A stretch of 64,000 bases of DNA from an uncultured Candidatus Poseidoniales archaeon (GCA_964389655.1 CAYMED010000010.1:1-64000); one strand, 5' to 3'. Counted from the first letter of the stretch, positions 2,743-10,814 are shown. A program made the numbers and translations. Notes: a model not told the origin generated them from the sequence alone.

Positions 2743-3705
2743 ATGGGTGAGAAATTCGACTGGGGATCACACAAGATTAGTGATGAAGTAATATTAGCAG
2801 GGTCTGCAGTTAACACCCCCCGTGAAGAAGCGGATCTTTTGTGTGATAAGGCAGCGCGCAAGCATTACGAAAATTTCCTCGTAATCAGTCGCTTCACGCG
2901 TTCTGATTTACAACAAGACATGGCAGCACTTTATGCATATAGCCGCTATGCAGATGATCTTGCTGATGAAGGACCATATTTGCCTGAAGAAAGGTTGCGT
3001 TTGTTGGACACATGGGAAAACATGCTTAATGAGGTTAGTGAAAATGCGTGGACAGGCAAAGCAAGGCACCCAATTTTCGTATCTTTAGCCAACACTGCAC
3101 AAAAACACGATCTCCCTGTAAAGCCATTCCGAGACCTGATTCGAGCATTCAAGCTTGACCAAACCAAGACACGCTACAACACATGGAAAGAAGTTACCGA
3201 ATACTGTCAAGGTTCAGCGAACCCCGTTGGGCGGATTGTGTTGATGCTCCATGGGGTGCGAAACGAAGAGGCATTTGCGTACTCAGATGACATTTGTACC
3301 GCTCTTCAATTGGCAAATCACTGGCAAGATATGCGAAGAGATGTAAGGAATGGTCGCATTTACATGCCCCTCTCAACTTTGAGCAAGCACAATGCAAATA
3401 TTGAGGACATTGAATCTTTGAATCTCACTCAAGAAATCCAGAATGCTGTGTCATACGAGGTGAAACGAGCAGAAGATCTATTTCAACGTGGACGCTCTTT
3501 ACTTCAATTGGTAGACCCATACCTCTCAGTAAGTCTAGATCTATTTGCGGCTGGTGGCGAACGTATTCTTGAACAGATACGGCGGAAGCAGTACGATACA
3601 ATAAATCAACGCGTTAGAATTGGACGGATTGGACGATTCAGACTCTTATTCAGAGGATGGCGCAACTTACGAAAGGTGGAACGGAAGAAAATACATCGCA
3701 AATAA
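2743..3705 (+). CDS. hpnC: Hydroxysqualene synthase HpnC (squalene/phytoene synthase family)
   Basis: HpnC signature HYENF, plus YAYSRYADDLADEG, YCQGSANPVGR and ALQLANHWQD; AGGTGA upstream of the ATG. Confidence 0.9.
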   Translation: MGEKFDWGSHKISDEVILAGSAVNTPREEADLLCDKAARKHYENFLVISRFTRSDLQQDMAALYAYSRYADDLADEGPYLPEERLRLLDTWENMLNEVSENAWTGKARHPIFVSLANTAQKHDLPVKPFRDLIRAFKLDQTKTRYNTWKEVTEYCQGSANPVGRIVLMLHGVRNEEAFAYSDDICTALQLANHWQDMRRDVRNGRIYMPLSTLSKHNANIEDIESLNLTQEIQNAVSYEVKRAEDLFQRGRSLLQLVDPYLSVSLDLFAAGGERILEQIRRKQYDTINQRVRIGRIGRFRLLFRGWRNLRKVERKKIHRK

Positions 3706-3745
3706 GCGGGTAAGTCATAGAAGAAGGGCCTTGTTTGGTGACGCT

Positions 3746-4936
3746 ATGGATGATGTGTCCTTGCAGGTGCGGCGCAAGTCAATCATCCTCAATGAAGCAG
3801 ATGCAATCTTAGCATCCACCGCGAGTGGGGAGATGACTCTGGAGAAACAGACGACCCTGATAAATCGAGAAATGAAGGACGTGTTACATGCCCCATTCGA
3901 TTCGATAGAAGGAGCACTTTGGGATGCTGAACCAAGTGCGCCCATGATCAAGGCTGCAGAAAAATACGTGATGGATCTTACACGCCGCGAAGCTACAAAC
4001 TTTTACCATTCCATTCGATTTTTACCATTGCAAAAGCGAAAAGGAATTGCTGCGATTTATGGATTCTGTCGACGAGCAGATGACATCGCAGATGGCGACC
4101 ATATCGAGACCCTTGACCATGTAGGTGAAGATGAACTGAATGGTGTTGAGGCCTATCAGAAAGATCTCGAATCACATCCAAACTATCCAGAATTACTTGA
4201 TCAAGATGAAGGGAAAAAGCGCCTCAAGATGTTGTATCTGCTGCGGCTTAAACTTTCTACTTGTTTTGGCGACAAGTGGTCCACAGATCCTGTGTTCGTT
4301 GCCTTACGTGCAACTGTTGAGAGATTCAAAATTTCTAGAACATATTTTGACGAAGTGATTGATGGCATGGAGGATGACTTGTACTGCTCAACATACCCTG
4401 ACCTTGAGAGATTGAGAATATATTGCCACAGAGTTGCTTCTGCAACTGGGATTTTGTGCATTGATGTCTATGGAACAAATAATGTTGAAATGGCACGATT
4501 ACATGGTGAGGCCTTAGGGCAATTTATGCAGATGGTCAATATTCTGCGCGATGTTTCGGAAGATGCTGCGCGTTCTCGAACCTACTTGCCAGTTGACCTC
4601 CTTAAACGCCATGGAGTCAATAAAAAAGACCTCAATGGGGGTGCATCAGGGTCAAATGCCTGGCGCAGTGTTGTTTCAGAATGGGGTGAATTATGCGAAG
4701 AGCAACTTCAAATTGCTAGGCCTCTGCTTAGGTATTTACCCGCAGACACACAATATTCACCAGCAGTTATGATTGCATTATACCGAGGGATATTGCGACG
4801 GATACAAATCCAACCAGATCTCGTCTTTAAAGGCAGAGTGAGATTATCGAAAACAAAGAAATTGTGGATTTCAATATCGACACTTATGAGGACAAGACTG
4901 TTCCCCGCAAAAATCAAGAAACAGCATAAGGGATGA
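3746..4936 (+). CDS. hpnD: Presqualene diphosphate synthase HpnD (squalene/phytoene synthase family)
   Basis: TNFYHSIRFLP, IYGFCRRADDIAD, YCHRVASATG, QMVNILRDVSED. Start moved from 3620 to ATG 3746 (GGTGA upstream, no overlap with hpnC). Confidence 0.85.
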   Translation: MDDVSLQVRRKSIILNEADAILASTASGEMTLEKQTTLINREMKDVLHAPFDSIEGALWDAEPSAPMIKAAEKYVMDLTRREATNFYHSIRFLPLQKRKGIAAIYGFCRRADDIADGDHIETLDHVGEDELNGVEAYQKDLESHPNYPELLDQDEGKKRLKMLYLLRLKLSTCFGDKWSTDPVFVALRATVERFKISRTYFDEVIDGMEDDLYCSTYPDLERLRIYCHRVASATGILCIDVYGTNNVEMARLHGEALGQFMQMVNILRDVSEDAARSRTYLPVDLLKRHGVNKKDLNGGASGSNAWRSVVSEWGELCEEQLQIARPLLRYLPADTQYSPAVMIALYRGILRRIQIQPDLVFKGRVRLSKTKKLWISISTLMRTRLFPAKIKKQHKG

Positions 4937-6723
4937 TTATGAGTTCAAAAATAAGAGTTGCTGTTGTCCTTGAAGACAGTTGCCAACCAAAAAAATGTAA
5001 TTCAGAATGCTGGGCATTCTGCCCACCGGTACGGAATGGTATTGAATGCATCGTTCTAGATGACCGAAACGGAAAACCACATATCAGCGAACCACTCTGC
5101 ATCGGATGCGGAATCTGCGTGAACAAATGCCCACATGATGCTCTAATCATCACGCAATTACCCTCTGAAATAGATGGGGAGTGTGTTCACCGATTTGGCC
5201 GAAATGGATTTCGACTTTATCGATGGCCAAATCCAGGAAGAGACCGCGTCCTTGGATTACTAGGTCCAAATGGGATGGGGAAAACAACCGCACTTTCCAT
5301 CCTGTCAGGTGAGCGCATCCCAAATCTTGGAGAGTGGGAAAACGAGGACATGGATTGGAATGATGCGCTAGCCGCACTGCCCGCTGGAGGTGTTCGAGAC
5401 CACATTGACCGCATCGCGCACGACGAAATATTTGTTGCAACGAAGCCACAAGCAGTCGATCAATTACCCAAAGTCGTGAAGGGCCAATTAGGGGATCTAT
5501 TGCGAAGTGTGGATGAAGAAGGCCGGCTTGAAGAAGTAACTTTTGATTTGGGTTTGAGCCATCTGCTTGAAAGAGAAATCTCAGAGTTATCTGGCGGAGA
5601 ACTTCAGCGCACTGCAATTGCAGCAACGGTGCTTAAGTCAGCAGATCTTTACTTCTTTGATGAGCCAACATCCTACCTTGATATACACGAAAGAATCCGA
5701 GTTAGTCGCGTCATCCGTGAACTCGCTGAACGTGCCCCGATACTTGTCGTAGAGCATGACCTCGCAATATTAGATGTATTATGCGATAGTCTGCAGATCT
5801 TGTACGGTCGAAAAGGTGGTTTTGGTGTTATGACAAAACCTCGTCCCACACGCACGGCGATCAACGTTTATCTTGATGGTTATCTCAAAGAGGAAAATGT
5901 CAGAGTTCGGGACAAGCCCATTAAATTCCATTCTGGACATGAACGAGAGGTTGAAAGGGGAAATGAGATCATATCTTGGGATGGTATTGAAAAAAAATTA
6001 GGGGATTTTTCTCTCAAAACGGGAAAAGGTAGCATACATCGTGCCGAAGTGGTAGGGGTTGTTGGTCCAAATGGAACTGGGAAAACCACGCTCGCACGAA
6101 TTCTGGGGGGCGAAATAGACCCAGATGCTGGTTGGTTCTCAAGTGAGGCTGTTATCGCATACAAGCCACAGCATGTCGAAGTTGAGCATGACGGAACAGT
6201 GGGTGAGTGGCTGACCAATGTGATCGGTCCCCATTGGCAAGGCGGAGAATTTGCATCAACGCTGATCCGACCACTGGGTATTGATGCCATCATTGAACGC
6301 CCTACAAACGCTCTTTCAGGTGGTGAATTACAAGCTGTTCACTTGGCATTATGCATCGGCCAAGACGCTGATTTATACCTTTTAGACGAACCCTCTGCGC
6401 ATCTTGACGCATCAGCTAGAATGGAGGCTGCTAGAGCCATTCGGAGGCTCATGGAATCAAATGAGAGAGCTGCGCTTGTCATTGACCATGATGTATACAT
6501 GATTGATATCATCTCGGATCGCCTTCTCGTGTTCTCAGGAGTAGGAGGCATTGAAGGAAAAGCAGAAGGTCCAATTGGATTGCGAAAAGGAATGAATCGC
6601 TTCCTAAAGGATGCTGATGTCACATTCAGAAGAGATCACGATAGTCGAAGGCCCCGGATCAACAAGCATGGAAGTAGACTGGACCGTGAGCAGCGCAGCA
6701 AGGGTGAGTATTTCTACAGTTGA
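4933..6723 (+). CDS. rli1: Ribosome recycling ATPase ABCE1/RLI1
   Basis: N-terminal CQPKKC..EC...CP and CIGCGICVNKCP Fe-S motifs; two ABC domains (GPNGMGKT, GPNGTGKT, LSGGELQ twice); C-terminal TFRRD..SRRPRINK. Confidence 0.97.
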   Translation: MIMSSKIRVAVVLEDSCQPKKCNSECWAFCPPVRNGIECIVLDDRNGKPHISEPLCIGCGICVNKCPHDALIITQLPSEIDGECVHRFGRNGFRLYRWPNPGRDRVLGLLGPNGMGKTTALSILSGERIPNLGEWENEDMDWNDALAALPAGGVRDHIDRIAHDEIFVATKPQAVDQLPKVVKGQLGDLLRSVDEEGRLEEVTFDLGLSHLLEREISELSGGELQRTAIAATVLKSADLYFFDEPTSYLDIHERIRVSRVIRELAERAPILVVEHDLAILDVLCDSLQILYGRKGGFGVMTKPRPTRTAINVYLDGYLKEENVRVRDKPIKFHSGHEREVERGNEIISWDGIEKKLGDFSLKTGKGSIHRAEVVGVVGPNGTGKTTLARILGGEIDPDAGWFSSEAVIAYKPQHVEVEHDGTVGEWLTNVIGPHWQGGEFASTLIRPLGIDAIIERPTNALSGGELQAVHLALCIGQDADLYLLDEPSAHLDASARMEAARAIRRLMESNERAALVIDHDVYMIDIISDRLLVFSGVGGIEGKAEGPIGLRKGMNRFLKDADVTFRRDHDSRRPRINKHGSRLDREQRSKGEYFYS

Positions 6724-6734
6724 GATGGTTCATC

Positions 6735-8645
6735 ATGCCAATTAGCATTGATTCAGGGGGTCCGCTATTGCGAAGCAGGCACCGCATATCGGCGACTGGA
6801 TTAGTAGGTTGGAATCGATGTCCACGACAGTGGTATTTGCGCCGCAGATTGGGCATCTCAGATCGAATGACACCCCCCATGGTTCTTGGACATCTAGTCG
6901 AAGAAGCCCTTGTTGGACTTCTCATGGAGAGACCACCTCCAACAATTAATGGAAGAGATCCAGATACCTGGATCCGATGGTCGATAGATGGGGATGGAGA
7001 TTCTGCACGAGCAAATTGGGGAAAACAATCATGTGAGCATTTAGATGGAGAAAAGGATGAATGGTCAATCGATGATCTTCGTTCATGGATTAACAAAACC
7101 CTCGATGACGTCGTAGAAGAAATTCTGCGCCGTGCAAAATTAAATTGGGAAGAATTACCGTTTCGTAGCGGTGAAGGTGTTGAGCGTCTCGATGCAGCAA
7201 GAATTCGGCGTATGATATCATCTGGCTTAGAACTGCAACTAGAAGAAGTAAAAGCCTGCTTAGAAGCAAATGGAGGAACTTATCGAGATCAATGGTTTTT
7301 GGATGGTGACCCTCATGAAGTCCCATCGCCATGCTGGTATGAACATCCATTCGATCCAAGTGAGAGAAGAAGAAGGCCAAGTTTTGAGCCACCGGGTCAC
7401 ATAACACACAGTGATGGGCCCCCTGAGCCCTTGTGTGATGGAAAAGCATGGGATGCGAGGTCCGCTTGGGAAATTGCTCGGCCATGGGCAAAAGATCCTC
7501 GCATTATCAGCCCACAGAGGCTTGTCCACCCGGATCGTTGGGCATCTGGAGAACTTGACTTGGCCCTGCGCTGGAAGGGAACAACAACCATTGTAGATAT
7601 CAAAGCAAGTGCCGGAACAAGTGTTTGGAGTGCCGGAGTGGGGACTCAACTTCGATTCTATCGATGGCTATGGAATTCGTGTCAGGGCAATGAAGTTAAG
7701 CCAGCATGTACTGACTTGGAAGCCTGGTTCCTAGATGGACCTCACAGAACAGCATTTGAGGATGATCTTGAAGAAGATCAAATAGTCGCAGTCCAGCACG
7801 AGCAAATTGCATCTAACGCAGATCGAATGCCACCTGCTAAACCATCGCCAATGCCCGAATGCTCACCCGGTGGGATCCCTAAATTCAATGATGAGGCAGA
7901 TCTTCAGCGGACGTGTGAACTTTGCTCAGCAAATTTCCTATGCGATGCTAGGTCAGATGACGAACGCAGCGCTGGACTTCGTAAGCGCTGGAAAAAGGCA
8001 CCAGCTGGGAATTTTTCCACCTTGTGTTCATCGGCATCCCCATCTGCTCCCGCAACACCGATTTCGTCACTTCCGCGTCGTCTAAATGCCTCTGGAAGTG
8101 TACTCTCAAGTTGGGGACCATTCGCGAATCAATATGGCGAAGAAGTCCATGGACTTGTCTTCGGCGCCGAAGGAGGAACCACAGTCCTTGTTGAAGAAGC
8201 AGACCACAATGCAAACCCAAATCTCAAGGAAACAGGAGGCGAGGTCATATTCGAAGGAGCATTACCCGGCCAATGGCGTGGTAGGCCACGACTCTATATC
8301 GATTCAGAAACAAAGATTCATCAAGGAAAAACCTCCCAAAATCTAGAACTTACCCCTCTTGGCTTGCTACCTACAAAGGCCTCCGTAGAGGGAGTTGTCA
8401 TCTCACGCGGGCTATTCCGTGGCCACGGGAGAAATGGACGCCCATGGTCAATCGAATCCACCCATATTTGGGATGGTACTGGCACGATTGAATTGGTTGC
8501 CTTTGGTAGAGCAAGACGTACATCGACTAGTGATTTTGAAGTTGGCTCTAGAATTCGAATTCAGCATGCAGAACTTGGCTGGCGCGCAGGTCTGCCACAA
8601 CTTCGAGTAAGAGAAGGGATGACACGTGTTGACCCCCTAGAGTAA
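6735..8645 (+). CDS. PD-(D/E)XK nuclease (Cas4/AddB-like, predicted 4Fe-4S) fused to two RPA-like OB folds, paralog 1
   Basis: ISATGL...RCPRQW, GELDL...IVDIKAS, QLRFY, CELCx5C; C-terminal OB-like segments (WDGTGTIELVAFG...FEVGSRIRI). Start ATG 6735 (alternative TTG 6720). Confidence 0.8.
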   Translation: MPISIDSGGPLLRSRHRISATGLVGWNRCPRQWYLRRRLGISDRMTPPMVLGHLVEEALVGLLMERPPPTINGRDPDTWIRWSIDGDGDSARANWGKQSCEHLDGEKDEWSIDDLRSWINKTLDDVVEEILRRAKLNWEELPFRSGEGVERLDAARIRRMISSGLELQLEEVKACLEANGGTYRDQWFLDGDPHEVPSPCWYEHPFDPSERRRRPSFEPPGHITHSDGPPEPLCDGKAWDARSAWEIARPWAKDPRIISPQRLVHPDRWASGELDLALRWKGTTTIVDIKASAGTSVWSAGVGTQLRFYRWLWNSCQGNEVKPACTDLEAWFLDGPHRTAFEDDLEEDQIVAVQHEQIASNADRMPPAKPSPMPECSPGGIPKFNDEADLQRTCELCSANFLCDARSDDERSAGLRKRWKKAPAGNFSTLCSSASPSAPATPISSLPRRLNASGSVLSSWGPFANQYGEEVHGLVFGAEGGTTVLVEEADHNANPNLKETGGEVIFEGALPGQWRGRPRLYIDSETKIHQGKTSQNLELTPLGLLPTKASVEGVVISRGLFRGHGRNGRPWSIESTHIWDGTGTIELVAFGRARRTSTSDFEVGSRIRIQHAELGWRAGLPQLRVREGMTRVDPLE

Positions 8646-8682
8646 GCGGATTCGTCAAGTACCCCCGCACTAGAGGCAGAGT

Positions 8683-10491
8683 GTGCCAGTCCAAATTGTC
8701 CGGGACGAAGATGCTGCACATGACCGCTTCTCCCGCCTTTCCGCATCTCAATTGAAGCGCTGGAGGAATTGCCCACGACAATGGTGGTATCAGCGCGTGC
8801 GCCGTTTGCGACCTGCCCAGCCACCTATTCTGATGTTTGGCAGAGTCGTAGAATCTCTCGTGTGTAGAATCTTGCGAGAGGGCCCTGTCCGTGTTGGCCC
8901 AGAAGACTCACCTGATGCGATTTGGACGCCACTAGATGGCGAAGGAAGGCCAAGCAGGGATAGGGAAATATGGCCAACCATACCCGGTCTAAGGTCACCG
9001 GAAACATGGCCCCATAACCGCGAAGATTTGTCGGCATGGTGCTTATCCCGGATCGAGATGCATATCTCTGGCGTTTGGGAAAATGCAAAACAAGAATGGG
9101 AGCAGGAAGTTAACAGAACTGGAGAGTGGGATGATCTCAATGAGGGTGATGTCACTGGGATGGTCATGGCAGCATTAGAGTTTCAAATTGATGAAGTTGA
9201 ACGAGCACTTGGATCGCCTGATTCAGAAGAGTGGAAAATTTGGCGATCGGGACATCGACCGAAATGGCCACCGCCTGATGGATGGGCGCCAGATGCTGCA
9301 CCCGAATCGATTCTGAGAAAGGCTGAGCCATCCTTAGCCATTGCTTGGGAAGTTTCTCGCCCATGGTTTGTCGACCCTGACGCCAAAACATTCACACTAG
9401 GGGCAGTTCATCCAGAACACTGGTTCAATGGCGAGTATGACCTTGTCCACACATGGGATGGACGGACTAGAATCATTGACATCAAAGCATCGAAAGGCAC
9501 GTCTGATTATGCTGGAGGTTACCCCGAACAATTGCGAATATACGCATGGCTTTGGAACAGGAACCATCCGGAAAAGAAGGTAGATGGACTAGAAATATGG
9601 TACCTTGGGATCCCTGAAATTGTGTATATTGAAGTGCCAAAAGATGACGAAATACTCGCAATGGAAGATGAAATGAGAGAAGTACACAAGCAGTTACTTC
9701 TTTCAGATCGCAAGATGGATGACTTTCCTGCAAATCCCACATCTTTGAAGCGGTTTGAACCCGGTGGCCTGATTATTGCTGAAGAAATGCCCTCTCTAGA
9801 ACGATGTGCCCAATGTGATCACCGATTGATATGTGATTCCAGCGGAGTCAAGAAGAATCTGCTCAATCCAAGAGAATTATCCCACACATCTCGAAATGTT
9901 GAATTCACACCCATGGGGGAGATTGAAAGCCGATTGCCAGTAACTGGAACAATCGCGAGTTTAGTTGGTTTGTCAAAGAAATGGCCAGACTTTGAATTAA
10001 GAACCAAGCGGGGTACCACTTCAGTTTTTGTTCGAGGCATGGAGATTGATACAATTAGAAACTTCAGTGTCGGCGAAAATATCCACCTAGAAAAAGCCCG
10101 TATTGAGCCAAGATACAGAGGCCCTGTTGTGATCATCGATGAGCATTCTTCCATCCAATATTCTGAAGGAATTGAGCAAGGGGGGGTTGAGCCGACCGTC
10201 CATCTAATGCGGAAAGACATCATTGGCGAAGTTATCTCCTTGGGAGCTTCTGAATGGATTAGAAATGATGGGGGAATTGGCAGAAATTGGCGAGCAACGC
10301 TGATTGACAATAGCGGAGCAATGGAAGTAATTGCCTATGACAGTGATATCGATGATGGCATGAGAGCAATTCGGAGGGGAGAAATAGTCCAAGTTGAACG
10401 AGGAATCATATCCGAGCGCGACGGGTGGCCTCAACTCAAAGTTGACGAAAGCAGTACTGTTCGCTGGATCCCCTCTGAAGGCGCCGAGTGA
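8683..10491 (+). CDS. PD-(D/E)XK nuclease (Cas4/AddB-like, predicted 4Fe-4S) fused to two RPA-like OB folds, paralog 2
   Basis: LSASQL...NCPRQW, GEYDL...IIDIKAS, QLRIY, CAQCx5C; OB-like LIDNSGAMEVIAY...IRRGEIVQV...QLKVDE. Confidence 0.8.
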   Translation: MPVQIVRDEDAAHDRFSRLSASQLKRWRNCPRQWWYQRVRRLRPAQPPILMFGRVVESLVCRILREGPVRVGPEDSPDAIWTPLDGEGRPSRDREIWPTIPGLRSPETWPHNREDLSAWCLSRIEMHISGVWENAKQEWEQEVNRTGEWDDLNEGDVTGMVMAALEFQIDEVERALGSPDSEEWKIWRSGHRPKWPPPDGWAPDAAPESILRKAEPSLAIAWEVSRPWFVDPDAKTFTLGAVHPEHWFNGEYDLVHTWDGRTRIIDIKASKGTSDYAGGYPEQLRIYAWLWNRNHPEKKVDGLEIWYLGIPEIVYIEVPKDDEILAMEDEMREVHKQLLLSDRKMDDFPANPTSLKRFEPGGLIIAEEMPSLERCAQCDHRLICDSSGVKKNLLNPRELSHTSRNVEFTPMGEIESRLPVTGTIASLVGLSKKWPDFELRTKRGTTSVFVRGMEIDTIRNFSVGENIHLEKARIEPRYRGPVVIIDEHSSIQYSEGIEQGGVEPTVHLMRKDIIGEVISLGASEWIRNDGGIGRNWRATLIDNSGAMEVIAYDSDIDDGMRAIRRGEIVQVERGIISERDGWPQLKVDESSTVRWIPSEGAE

Positions 10492-10564
10492 GAGATTTGA
10501 ACTCTCGCGTCCAAAGGACAGTGGTTTTCGAGACCACCGCAATACCAGGCTATGCGAACTCGGC
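10482..10564 (-). tRNA. tRNA-Ser (anticodon CGA), intronless, long variable arm
   Basis: Reverse complement folds as a cloverleaf: acceptor GCCGAGT/ACTCGGC plus discriminator G, anticodon arm GTGGT-CTCGAAA-ACCAC, variable arm GTCC-TTT-GGAC, T arm GAGAG-TTCAAAT-CTCTC. Confidence 0.95.
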
Positions 10565-10610: not shown

Positions 10611-10814
10611 ATGCAAATCATCATCGAGGTTGAGGGCGCGGCGAGCAGAGTCATAGAAAGCATGGTACCCATTTCAATAGGAGATGTTATCCAACAATTG
10701 GGATATCCAGTAACAACAACACTTCTAGTTCATGAAGGACAAATATTACCACATTCAGCGATCATACAAAATGATGTGCGGTTAACTGCCATTGATGTAG
10801 CATCTGGTGGATGA
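10611..10814 (+). CDS. Ubiquitin-like sulfur carrier / small archaeal modifier protein (ThiS/MoaD/SAMP family)
   Basis: 67 aa from ATG 10611 ending in the diglycine VASGG. The track start at 10488 would run through the tRNA. Confidence 0.8.
   Translation: MQIIIEVEGAASRVIESMVPISIGDVIQQLGYPVTTTLLVHEGQILPHSAIIQNDVRLTAIDVASGG

What the first reader, a model, noticed from the sequence alone, without database searches (positions are those of the whole stretch)
6735..10491. Tandem paralogous Fe-S PD-(D/E)XK nucleases each fused to RPA-like OB folds: candidate helicase-less DNA end-processing heterodimer
Seen: two adjacent ~600-aa genes share CPRQW, AWExxRPWxxDP, VHPxxW, GExDL, DIKAS, QLRxY and CxxCx5C. 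Each has an apparently intact catalytic D...DxK and the split 1+3 cysteine set, followed by two OB-fold-like segments (D-x-T/S-G-x-I/M-E-L/V-V/I-A). No helicase, cas1/cas2 or CRISPR array is in the window. Established: the split four-Cys 'iron staple' around a RecB-type active site characterises Cas4, AddB, Dna2 and Exo5, which act on ssDNA and in eukaryotes depend on RPA. Inference: an ancient duplication gave a two-subunit nuclease with built-in ssDNA-binding modules, like AddAB without its motor or a Dna2/Exo5-RPA fusion. It sits in a core locus (ABCE1, tRNA), which suggests housekeeping repair or resection rather than defence.
Basis: partly seen in the sequence, partly recalled or inferred. 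Interest (0 to 1): 0.75.

Follow-up and report, generated by a model that had tools for sequence, protein, structure and literature searches.

The report
Paired Fe-S nucleases with RPA-like folds
Two neighbouring sister genes of a Marine Group II archaeon each encode a Cas4/AddB-type iron-sulfur nuclease fused to two RPA-like single-strand-DNA-binding modules; the design is unstudied and confined to this abundant ocean order, and it most likely trims single-stranded DNA, but it is probably not the cell's main break-resection machine because these genomes also carry a full AddAB-like helicase-nuclease.

Summary
Gene A (6735-8645) and gene B (8683-10491) are full-length paralogs (27% identity, E 3e-47). 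Each has a PF12705 PD-(D/E)XK nuclease domain, family-invariant D...DxK/QxxxY motifs and four cysteines, followed by two OB folds. Predicted structures (pLDDT 86.5 and 80.8) match ACE1, AdnAB, AddB, Exo5, Cas4 and Dna2 nuclease domains and archaeal RPA OB folds.

The family is full-length in 62 of 63 sampled genomes of the window's order plus its own. It was not found in 8 sister-family genomes or the rest of the phylum. The duplication predates the order, and ABCE1-A-B synteny is conserved. No Cas1, CRISPR array or viral copy was found.

- A is missing from five small-genome genera, so B can work without it.
- Mre11, Rad50, HerA and NurA were not found in the order, while RadA is universal.
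- Every genome tested carries an order-specific AddAB-like helicase-nuclease operon, which is a better candidate for end resection.

My best reading is a co-expressed pair of single-strand DNA end or flap nucleases, an Exo5/Dna2-plus-RPA analogue. The heterodimer is untested. This scan had already noted the family in two other genomes.

The parts
6735..8645 (+). Gene A (636 aa): Fe-S PD-(D/E)XK nuclease plus two OB folds
   Evidence: ORF and translation. The ATG at 6735 matches the family's consensus N-terminus MPV.... PF12705 hit at E 1.4e-8. AF2 model pLDDT 80.8, pTM 0.83.
6774..7952 (+). A nuclease domain (about residues 14-406). Cys29; Asp275; Asp288-x-Lys290; Gln305...Tyr309; Cys394, Cys397, Cys403, plus Cys376 upstream
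   Evidence: These residues are invariant or nearly invariant in 31 A-type sequences. VIA-align: AdnAB 9np6 Z 13.1 (224 aligned, rmsd 3.5), Dna2 5ean Z 12.5, ACE1 9iab Z 11.7, AddB 3u44_B Z 10.4.
8076..8642 (+). A tandem OB folds (about residues 448-532 and 545-636)
   Evidence: Strand pattern in the AF2 model. P. abyssi Rpa1 8aa9 Z 13.2 and 2k50 Z 12.5. Weak PF01336 hit at residues 551-625.
8683..10491 (+). Gene B (602 aa): Fe-S PD-(D/E)XK nuclease plus two OB folds
   Evidence: ORF and translation. The GTG start matches the family consensus MPV.... PF12705 hit at E 1.4e-16 over the full model. AF2 model pLDDT 86.5, pTM 0.85.
8707..9846 (+). B nuclease domain (about residues 9-388). Cys30; Glu251/Asp253; Asp266-x-Lys268; Gln283...Tyr287; Cys375, Cys378, Cys384
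   Evidence: All are invariant in 35 B-type sequences. VIA-align: ACE1 9iab Z 16.1 (238 aligned, rmsd 3.3), AdnAB 9np6 Z 14.5, AddB 3u44_B Z 12.7, Exo5 7lw7 Z 11.9, Cas4 8d3l Z 11.2, Dna2 5ean Z 10.6.
9925..10476 (+). B tandem OB folds (about residues 415-495 and 508-598)
   Evidence: Profile search against PDB: P. abyssi RPA 8aa9 E 4.7e-8, 2k50 1.2e-6, human RPA70 1jmc 1.2e-3, and first OB to Ta0387 2k75 8e-4. Foldseek: RPA70 DBD-A/B 1jmc E 1.4e-8. hhalign to the genome's own RPA: probability 93.8%, E 1.7e-7.
4933..6723 (+). ABCE1 (Rli1) gene immediately upstream, same strand, 11 nt before A
   Evidence: Pfam hits to ABC_tran, Fer4_RLI and Fer4. The ABCE1-A-B order is conserved in all three families of the order.
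10480..10564 (-). tRNA-Ser(CGA), antisense, overlapping the last 12 nt of gene B; marks the end of the co-directional block
   Evidence: ARAGORN and Rfam RF00005, 53 bits.

Best explanation
A and B are a co-expressed pair of chromosomal DNA-maintenance nucleases specific to Marine Group II archaea (Poseidoniales). Each chain joins a Cas4/AddB/Exo5-type metal-dependent PD-(D/E)XK nuclease, with a four-cysteine (probably 4Fe-4S) staple, to two RPA-derived OB folds. Shown here: the domain composition, the intact catalytic and cysteine motifs in both paralogs, the order-wide vertical inheritance, and the housekeeping context. Inferred: the OB pair binds single-stranded DNA and positions a free end or flap in the nuclease active site. 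Each protein would then be a self-contained single-strand exonuclease or flap nuclease, hard-wiring the cooperation that eukaryotic Dna2 and EXO5 have with free RPA. The two active paralogs may act as a heteromer or divide the work, for example by opposite polarities. B alone suffices in lineages that lost A. The enzymes probably work beside, and not in place of, the order's AddAB-like helicase-nuclease. Possible substrates are tails, gaps or flaps that lack a duplex end for AddAB to load on.
For: - Paralogy and motifs.
- PF12705 above its cut-off in both proteins.
- Confident models whose nuclease domains match ACE1, AdnAB, AddB, Exo5, Cas4 and Dna2 at Z 10-16, and whose OB folds match archaeal RPA at Z 12-13.
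- OB homology to RPA by profile (E 4.7e-8) and to the genome's own RPA (E 1.7e-7).
- Full-length homologs in 62 of 63 sampled genomes of the order plus the window's own genome, in 0 of 8 sister-family genomes and nowhere else among the 301 genomes of the phylum sample.
- Only 133 hits among 1.84 billion representative proteins.
- A and B form separate clades, each with all three families.
- Conserved ABCE1-A-B synteny.
- No Cas1, no CRISPR-like repeat array in the window, no viral copies, and only weak PADLOC hits.
- A canonical RPA, Fen1, RadA and an AddAB-like operon are all present, so A and B are an addition to these functions and not a replacement.
Against: - No biochemical data exist. 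Substrate (DNA or RNA), polarity, Fe-S binding and oligomeric state are all inferred.
- A complex of A with B could not be modelled with these tools.
- A is missing from five genera, which argues against an obligate heteromer.
- Conserved adjacency to ABCE1 could hint at an RNA or translation-linked role.
- Canonical Mre11, Rad50, HerA and NurA were not found in the order, which keeps a resection role possible.
Confidence: 0.55

Rival explanations
1. One reading: A and B form an obligate heterodimer that is the lineage's main double-strand-break end-resection nuclease. On this model it is a motor-less AddAB analogue replacing HerA-NurA, and it produces the 3' tails for RadA.
For: NurA was found in 0 of 36 genomes of the order, the HerA HAS-barrel in 0 of 25, and SbcD/Mre11 in 0 of 17 against 97 of 103 elsewhere in the phylum. 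No Rad50 hook scored above cut-off in 41 genomes. RadA was found in 41 of 41. Sister genus g18 has Mre11 and NurA but no A or B. The nuclease domains are structurally closest to AdnAB and AddB. Both paralogs keep their active sites.
Against: All 41 genomes of the order that were searched have a 1,500-1,750-aa UvrD/AddA-like gene. All 25 searched have the adjacent AddB-like gene, which was found in 0 of 126 other genomes of the phylum. That pair has helicase motifs and two Fe-S nuclease domains, which is a simpler explanation for the loss of Mre11-Rad50-HerA-NurA. A is missing from five genera. Sister genera g19 and g20 lack Mre11, NurA and A/B together, so the phyletic complementarity is imperfect.
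Confidence: 0.17
2. A and B are accessory subunits or downstream partners of the order's AddAB-like machine. They would, for example, degrade or trim the unwound strands or regulate the ssDNA product.
For: Within the genomes sampled from the phylum, both systems are confined to the same order and present in essentially all its members. They share the Cas4/AddB nuclease type.
Against: The two loci are unlinked: the AddAB-like operon is on contig C2 and the window on C10. No sequence relationship was detected beyond the shared motifs (hhalign E 0.02-0.33). The AddAB-like pair already has two nuclease domains.
Confidence: 0.12
3. A and B act on RNA in a translation-linked process, as suggested by their conserved position directly downstream of the ribosome-recycling factor ABCE1.
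For: The ABCE1-A-B order, with an 11-nt gap, is conserved across three families. PF01336-type OB folds also occur in tRNA synthetases.
Against: By profile, the best OB matches are RPA and SSB proteins, not synthetases. All the top structural matches to the nuclease domain (ACE1, AdnAB, AddB, Exo5, Cas4, Dna2) are, from background knowledge, DNA enzymes. In genus g9, B is no longer next to ABCE1.
Confidence: 0.08
4. A and B are a defence or mobile-element system: a solo Cas4-like or ACE1-like guide- or spacer-generating nuclease, or an anti-virus nuclease.
For: The top structural hit for B is the Argonaute-associated Cas4-family protein ACE1 (Z 16.1). PADLOC gives weak Cas4, DruK and Aga_Cas4-like hits. 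The proteins evolve about twice as fast as ABCE1 (33-38% against 61-68% identity).
Against: The genes are present in essentially every genome of the order at one syntenic core locus. No Cas1 was found in the genome, no CRISPR-like repeat array in the window, and no homolog in viral contigs. TIGR00372 cas4 scores 12-14 bits against a cut-off of 65.
Confidence: 0.04

Closest known systems
Nuclease domains of AdnAB (Mycobacterium, PDB 9np6/6ppu) and AddB (Bacillus AddAB, PDB 3u44_B)
   Same: Both have a PD-(D/E)XK fold with a helical insert and a split 1+3 cysteine Fe-S staple. Z is 13-14.5 for AdnAB and 10-12.7 for AddB. Two paralogous nuclease-bearing subunits are encoded in tandem.
   Different: A and B have no SF1 helicase or helicase-like domains and carry tandem RPA-type OB folds instead. 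They are about 600 aa, against about 1,000-1,200 aa. A separate AddAB-like operon exists in the same genome.
Cas4 family, including ACE1 (PDB 9iab), Cas4 of type I CRISPR systems (8d3l, 7mi4) and SSO0001 (4ic1)
   Same: Same nuclease superfamily (PF12705), same motif order and four cysteines. ACE1 is the best structural match for B (Z 16.1, 238 aligned residues).
   Different: A and B score below the TIGR00372 cut-off. No Cas1 was found, no CRISPR-like repeat array lies in the window, and no defence-gene link was seen; pAgo itself was not searched for. They have a roughly 150-residue helical insert and two C-terminal OB folds. They sit in a core, syntenic locus.
Eukaryotic Dna2 (PDB 5ean) and EXO5 (PDB 7lw7), which work with RPA
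   Same: All are Fe-S PD-(D/E)XK nucleases. From background knowledge, Dna2 and EXO5 act on single-strand ends and RPA directs their polarity. The Dna2 match runs through the nuclease into the following beta-barrel (257 aligned residues, Z 12.5 for A). Exo5 gives Z 11.9.
   Different: A and B have no helicase domain. PF08696 (Dna2) scores 17.4 bits, below its 22.4 cut-off. Here the RPA-like modules are covalently fused, and free RPA is also encoded.
Archaeal RPA/SSB (Pyrococcus abyssi Rpa1 8aa9/8aaj; the Thermoplasmatota RPA of model NF005554)
   Same: The C-terminal OB folds are homologous to RPA OB folds (E 4.7e-8, Z 12-13). They align to the genome's own RPA.
   Different: RPA has no nuclease domain. 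A and B score far below the NCBIfam RPA cut-offs. The canonical RPA is a separate 567-aa gene.

Membership tests
PD-(D/E)XK nuclease superfamily, PDDEXK_1 (PF12705; Cas4/AddB/RecB-type) | Scores above the Pfam gathering threshold | tested here: met
   A scores 35.5 bits and B 61.6 bits against a cut-off of 22.
PD-(D/E)XK nuclease superfamily, PDDEXK_1 (PF12705; Cas4/AddB/RecB-type) | Catalytic motifs D...(D/E)xK and QxxxY are present and conserved | tested here: met
   A has D275, D288, K290, Q305 and Y309. B has D253, D266, K268, Q283 and Y287. All are invariant in the family alignments.
PD-(D/E)XK nuclease superfamily, PDDEXK_1 (PF12705; Cas4/AddB/RecB-type) | Split four-cysteine set (one N-terminal, three C-terminal) that binds an Fe-S cluster | tested here: inconclusive
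   Four cysteines are conserved by sequence. In B they are C30, C375, C378 and C384, all invariant. In A they are C29, C394 and C397, plus a fourth that lies either downstream (C403) or upstream in a CxGx3GCxxC arrangement, depending on the clade. Metal binding cannot be tested with these tools.
PD-(D/E)XK nuclease superfamily, PDDEXK_1 (PF12705; Cas4/AddB/RecB-type) | Fold of the nuclease domain | tested here: met
   Z 10-16 to ACE1, AdnAB, AddB, Exo5, Cas4 and Dna2 over 190-250 aligned residues.
CRISPR-associated Cas4 (TIGR00372) | Scores above the equivalog cut-off | tested here: not met
   11.8 and 14 bits against a cut-off of 65.
CRISPR-associated Cas4 (TIGR00372) | Association with cas1/cas2 or a CRISPR array | tested here: not met
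   No Cas1 in the 93%-complete assembly and no tandem-repeat array with CRISPR-like spacing in the window. Cas2 was not searched for.
AddAB/AdnAB helicase-nuclease subunits | SF1 (UvrD-like) helicase or helicase-like domain N-terminal to the nuclease | tested here: not met
   A and B give no helicase family hit at E<=1. The models show only a nuclease domain plus two OB folds. A true AddA-like/AddB-like pair lies elsewhere in the genome.
Dna2 | Pfam Dna2 (PF08696) above threshold, and a C-terminal SF1B helicase | tested here: not met
   PF08696 scores 17.4 bits against 22.4 for A and gives no hit for B. Neither has a helicase domain.
Exo5 | Sequence membership in the Exo5 family model | tested here: inconclusive
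   No Exo5 family is listed among the Pfam hits at E<=1, though HMMER filters drop weak hits. The structural match to human EXO5 7lw7 is Z 11.9 over 160 aligned residues.
Replication protein A (archaeal RPA/SSB) | OB folds homologous to RPA DNA-binding domains | tested here: met
   Profile against 8aa9 E 4.7e-8. Z 12.4-13.2. hhalign to the genome's own RPA E 1.7e-7.
Replication protein A (archaeal RPA/SSB) | Scores as an RPA by the NCBIfam equivalog models | tested here: not met
   Best score is 15.9 bits against cut-offs of 442-767. The genome's real RPA hits NF005554 at E 8.8e-81, 272 bits.

The most novel reading that the evidence does not exclude
A and B form a motor-less two-nuclease machine invented at the base of Marine Group II. 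In it, fused RPA-derived OB pairs replace both the helicase and free RPA. The two active sites attack single-stranded DNA ends of opposite polarity. It arose together with the replacement of the archaeal Mre11-Rad50-HerA-NurA system by a bacterial-type AddAB. This would make it a prokaryotic, covalently wired counterpart of the eukaryotic Dna2/EXO5-RPA partnership.
Probability: 0.2. Interest if true: 0.75.

Novelty: new variant of a known kind. Interest (0 to 1): 0.55.

Why it matters
Marine Group II archaea are among the most abundant archaea of the surface ocean and remain uncultured, so their DNA-maintenance toolkit is known only from sequence. This family is essentially universal in the order and confined to it. 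It combines two well-studied modules, a Cas4/AddB-type Fe-S nuclease and RPA-type OB folds, in an architecture for which I found no description in the literature. In eukaryotes, RPA controls the polarity of the related nucleases Dna2 and EXO5. A natural fusion offers a simple system to test how an ssDNA-binding module steers such a nuclease. The finding also exposes a lineage-wide rewiring of recombination. Mre11, Rad50, HerA and NurA were not found, RadA is kept, and an AddAB-like machine is present. This runs against the usual picture of archaeal end resection.

Tried and rejected
Neighbourhoods were taken from the genome search and the fetch from genomes instead.
- Literature searches found no paper describing this family or the recombination gene set of Poseidoniales. 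One search was rejected for syntax.
- A scan of viral contigs found no relative.
- I asked whether the A/B nuclease domains are recent copies of the AddAB-like nuclease domains. hhalign gave E 0.02-0.33, so I rejected this.
- I asked whether A/B replace RPA. A canonical 567-aa RPA is present, so no.
- I asked whether A/B replace Fen1 or RecJ-type enzymes. Fen1 is present in 4 of 5 genomes, and DHH-family proteins in 5 of 5, so neither gives a clear gap for A/B to fill.
- G000 gave marginal SbcD and Rad50-hook hits. Both lie on a 5.5-kb contig together with a ribonucleotide reductase and a phage-type PDDEXK endonuclease. This is probably a binned virus fragment, not the host's Mre11-Rad50.
- The careful maximum-likelihood tree did not finish in the time allowed, so the quick IQ-TREE result is reported.
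- A model of the A-B complex and inspection of model coordinates (tunnel, cysteine geometry) were not possible with the tools available.


Full report
**Observation.** The window holds two co-directional ORFs at the stated place. Gene A runs 6735-8645 (636 aa from the ATG) and gene B runs 8683-10491 (602 aa from a GTG). Both starts fit the family consensus N-terminus MPV.... The database gene calls for this genome start about 50 residues later and so lose the first cysteine. BLASTP aligns A and B end to end at 27% identity, E 3e-47. Pfam PF12705 (PDDEXK_1) scores above its threshold in both, and PF01336 (OB fold) scores below threshold at the C-termini. NCBIfam gives only sub-threshold Cas4 and RPA hits.

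**Conservation of the functional residues.** I aligned 35 B-type and 31 A-type sequences from public metagenomes.
- In B, the following are invariant: Cys30, Glu251/Asp253, Asp266-x-Lys268, Gln283...Tyr287, and Cys375/Cys378/Cys384.
- In A, the following are invariant or nearly so: Cys29, Glu273/Asp275, Asp288-x-Lys290, Gln305...Tyr309, and Cys394/Cys397.
- The fourth cysteine of A varies by clade. It lies downstream (CxxCx5C) in this genome and in sequences named Thalassarchaeaceae. It lies upstream (CxGx3GCxxC) in sequences named Poseidoniaceae. The window's own A has both.

So both paralogs look catalytically competent, and both keep four cysteines.

**Fold.** AlphaFold2 with these alignments gave confident models: B at pLDDT 86.5 and pTM 0.85, A at pLDDT 80.8 and pTM 0.83.
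- Foldseek matched the C-terminal 200 residues of B to tandem-OB proteins such as RPA70 DBD-A/B (1jmc, E 1.4e-8).
- VIA-align against 48,161 chains matched B's nuclease domain (residues 9-388) as follows: ACE1 9iab Z 16.1, AdnAB 9np6 Z 14.5, AddB 3u44_B Z 12.7, EXO5 7lw7 Z 11.9, Cas4 8d3l Z 11.2, Dna2 5ean Z 10.6.
- The same search matched B's OB folds to P. abyssi Rpa1 8aa9 at Z 12.4.
- A gave the same picture: 8aa9 Z 13.2, AdnAB Z 13.1, Dna2 Z 12.5 over 257 residues, ACE1 Z 11.7.
- By sequence profile, the last OB of B hits P. abyssi RPA at E 4.7e-8. It also hits 2k50, Sulfolobus SSB and human RPA70. The first OB hits the Thermoplasma OB protein Ta0387.
- The B family aligns to the genome's own RPA at 93.8% probability, E 1.7e-7.

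**Distribution and history.**
- Full-length matches occur in all 41 genomes of a first sample of the window's order. In a second sample they occur in 62 of 63 genomes of the order plus the window's own.
- None of 8 genomes of the sister family in the same class has a match. The rest of the phylum matches only through the OB region of ORFs of about 420-450 aa, which are probably RPA genes.
- Public names on the hits place the order as Marine Group II: Candidatus Poseidoniaceae, Thalassarchaeaceae and Thermoplasmatota.
- The nuclease domain of B finds only 133 proteins at E<=0.001 among 1.84 billion representatives. Nearly all are family members or fragments. The protein atlas agrees.
- A quick IQ-TREE separates A and B at SH-aLRT 100, each clade holding all three families of the order. 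The duplication therefore predates the order.
- A is always upstream of B on the same strand. ABCE1-A-B, followed by tRNA-Ser, PAC2 and aIF2-alpha, is syntenic across the three families.
- A was not found in 10 of 10 genomes of five genera with 1.3-1.6-Mb genomes, including a single-contig genome. These genera form one clade in the B tree. In genus g9, B is no longer beside ABCE1.
- No Cas1 in the assembly, no CRISPR-like repeat array in the window, no viral homolog, and only weak PADLOC hits were found.

The pair is a vertically inherited core feature, and B can function without A.

**Genomic background of recombination.**
- NurA (PF09376) was found in 0 of 36 genomes of the order, against 57 of 165 elsewhere in the phylum.
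- The HerA HAS-barrel was found in 0 of 25, against 63 of 126.
- SbcD/Mre11 (TIGR00619) was found in 0 of 17 genomes of the two main families, against 97 of 103 elsewhere.
- No Rad50 zinc hook scored above cut-off in 41 genomes.
- RadA was found in 41 of 41.
- The marginal SbcD and Rad50 hits in the window's own genome sit on a 5.5-kb contig with a ribonucleotide reductase and a phage-type PDDEXK endonuclease. This is probably a virus fragment.
- In the sister family, genus g18 has Mre11 and NurA. Genera g19 and g20 lack these and also lack A/B.

However, a search for UvrD-type helicases found a 1,500-1,750-aa UvrD-like ORF in all 41 genomes. In the window's genome this gene (1575 aa) matches AddA at 1.3e-44, RecB at 1.5e-41 and PDB AddA 3u44_A at 1.8e-20. 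Its C-terminus carries CPRRKW, D...DLK, QLASY and a C-terminal cysteine cluster, which reads by eye as an Fe-S nuclease domain that Pfam misses. Directly upstream, overlapping by 10 nt, lies a 1162-aa gene with a C-terminal PF12705 domain ending in CxxCx5C, as in AddB. This AddB-like gene is present in 25 of 25 genomes of the order and in 0 of 126 others of the phylum. The order therefore has a complete two-subunit helicase-nuclease of the bacterial kind. That is the simpler candidate for making RadA substrates. A canonical RPA, Fen1 and DHH-family proteins are also present.

**Interpretation.** Three things are shown:
- a new domain architecture, a Cas4/AddB-type Fe-S nuclease plus a tandem RPA-type OB pair;
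- its presence in two anciently duplicated and apparently active copies;
- its status as a core, order-specific feature.

The mechanism is inferred. The OB pair would bind single-stranded DNA and present an end or flap to the nuclease. Related enzymes (Exo5, Dna2, Cas4, AddB) are end-dependent single-strand nucleases, and free RPA sets the polarity of Dna2 and EXO5 (background knowledge of those families). If the OB pair binds DNA in the RPA70 A-to-B 5'-to-3' direction, the N-terminal nuclease would face the 5' side. That would suggest 5' end or flap processing. This is a weak inference.

I put 0.55 on a self-contained single-strand DNA nuclease pair working beside AddAB. I put 0.17 on the resection-heterodimer model, 0.12 on an AddAB accessory role, 0.08 on an RNA or translation-linked role and 0.04 on defence.

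**Novelty.** No paper describing the family was found. Public records call it only 'PD-(D/E)XK nuclease family protein' or 'OB-fold nucleic acid binding domain-containing protein'. This scan had already noted the same tandem pair in two other Marine Group II genomes, with a similar reading. New here are the loss of A in a sub-clade, the shifted fourth cysteine in A, the narrowness of the family in 1.84 billion representatives, and the recombination-gene background including the AddAB-like operon. It is a new variant of a known kind.

Noticed in passing
L039:2328-5816 and L039:5807-10534 (G000 contig C2, outside the window): An AddAB-like operon. The first gene is 1162 aa with a C-terminal PF12705 nuclease ending in CxxCx5C. 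It overlaps by 10 nt a 1575-aa UvrD/AddA/RecB-like helicase whose C-terminus carries CPRRKW, D...DLK, QLASY and a cysteine cluster. The helicase gene was found in 41 of 41 genomes of the order and the AddB-like gene in 25 of 25, against 0 of 126 other Thermoplasmatota.
   Followed up: partly
whole genomes of the window's order (no window coordinates): The canonical archaeal end-resection genes were not found in the order: NurA 0 of 36, HerA HAS-barrel 0 of 25, SbcD/Mre11 0 of 17, and no Rad50 hook above cut-off in 41. RadA is in 41 of 41. Most other Thermoplasmatota have Mre11 (97 of 103).
   Followed up: partly
L038 (G000 contig C42, 5512 bp): This short contig carries a ribonucleotide reductase large subunit, a phage-type PDDEXK_15 endonuclease, a short SbcC-like ATPase (420 aa) and a short SbcD-like phosphoesterase (319 aa). 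It is probably a virus fragment binned into the assembly, which has 5.7% contamination.
   Followed up: partly
window 10614-10811 (+): A 66-aa ORF directly after gene B ends in ...VASGG, like a ubiquitin-like ThiS/MoaD/SAMP protein. It lies next to a PAC2 proteasome-assembly-chaperone gene. It is conserved at this position in relatives by tblastn but has no Pfam hit.
   Followed up: partly
window 10480-10564 (-): The tRNA-Ser(CGA) gene overlaps the last 12 nt of gene B on the opposite strand.
   Followed up: no
window 6735-6881 and 8683-8832: The public gene calls for this genome (P0123, 588 aa; P0003, 552 aa) start at internal methionines. They omit the conserved N-terminus with the CPRQW cysteine. 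Homologs support the longer ATG and GTG starts.
   Followed up: yes
G018:C26, G037:C48, G021:C25, G038:C83 and G039:C2 (relatives): In a few assemblies of the order, gene B appears split across frames or carries one in-frame TAA. These could be assembly errors or decaying copies.
   Followed up: no
window 3620-4936 (+): A squalene/phytoene synthase family gene (PF00494, E 5.9e-63) ends 4 nt into the ABCE1 start. The co-directional block therefore runs from lipid synthesis through ABCE1 to A and B.
   Followed up: no
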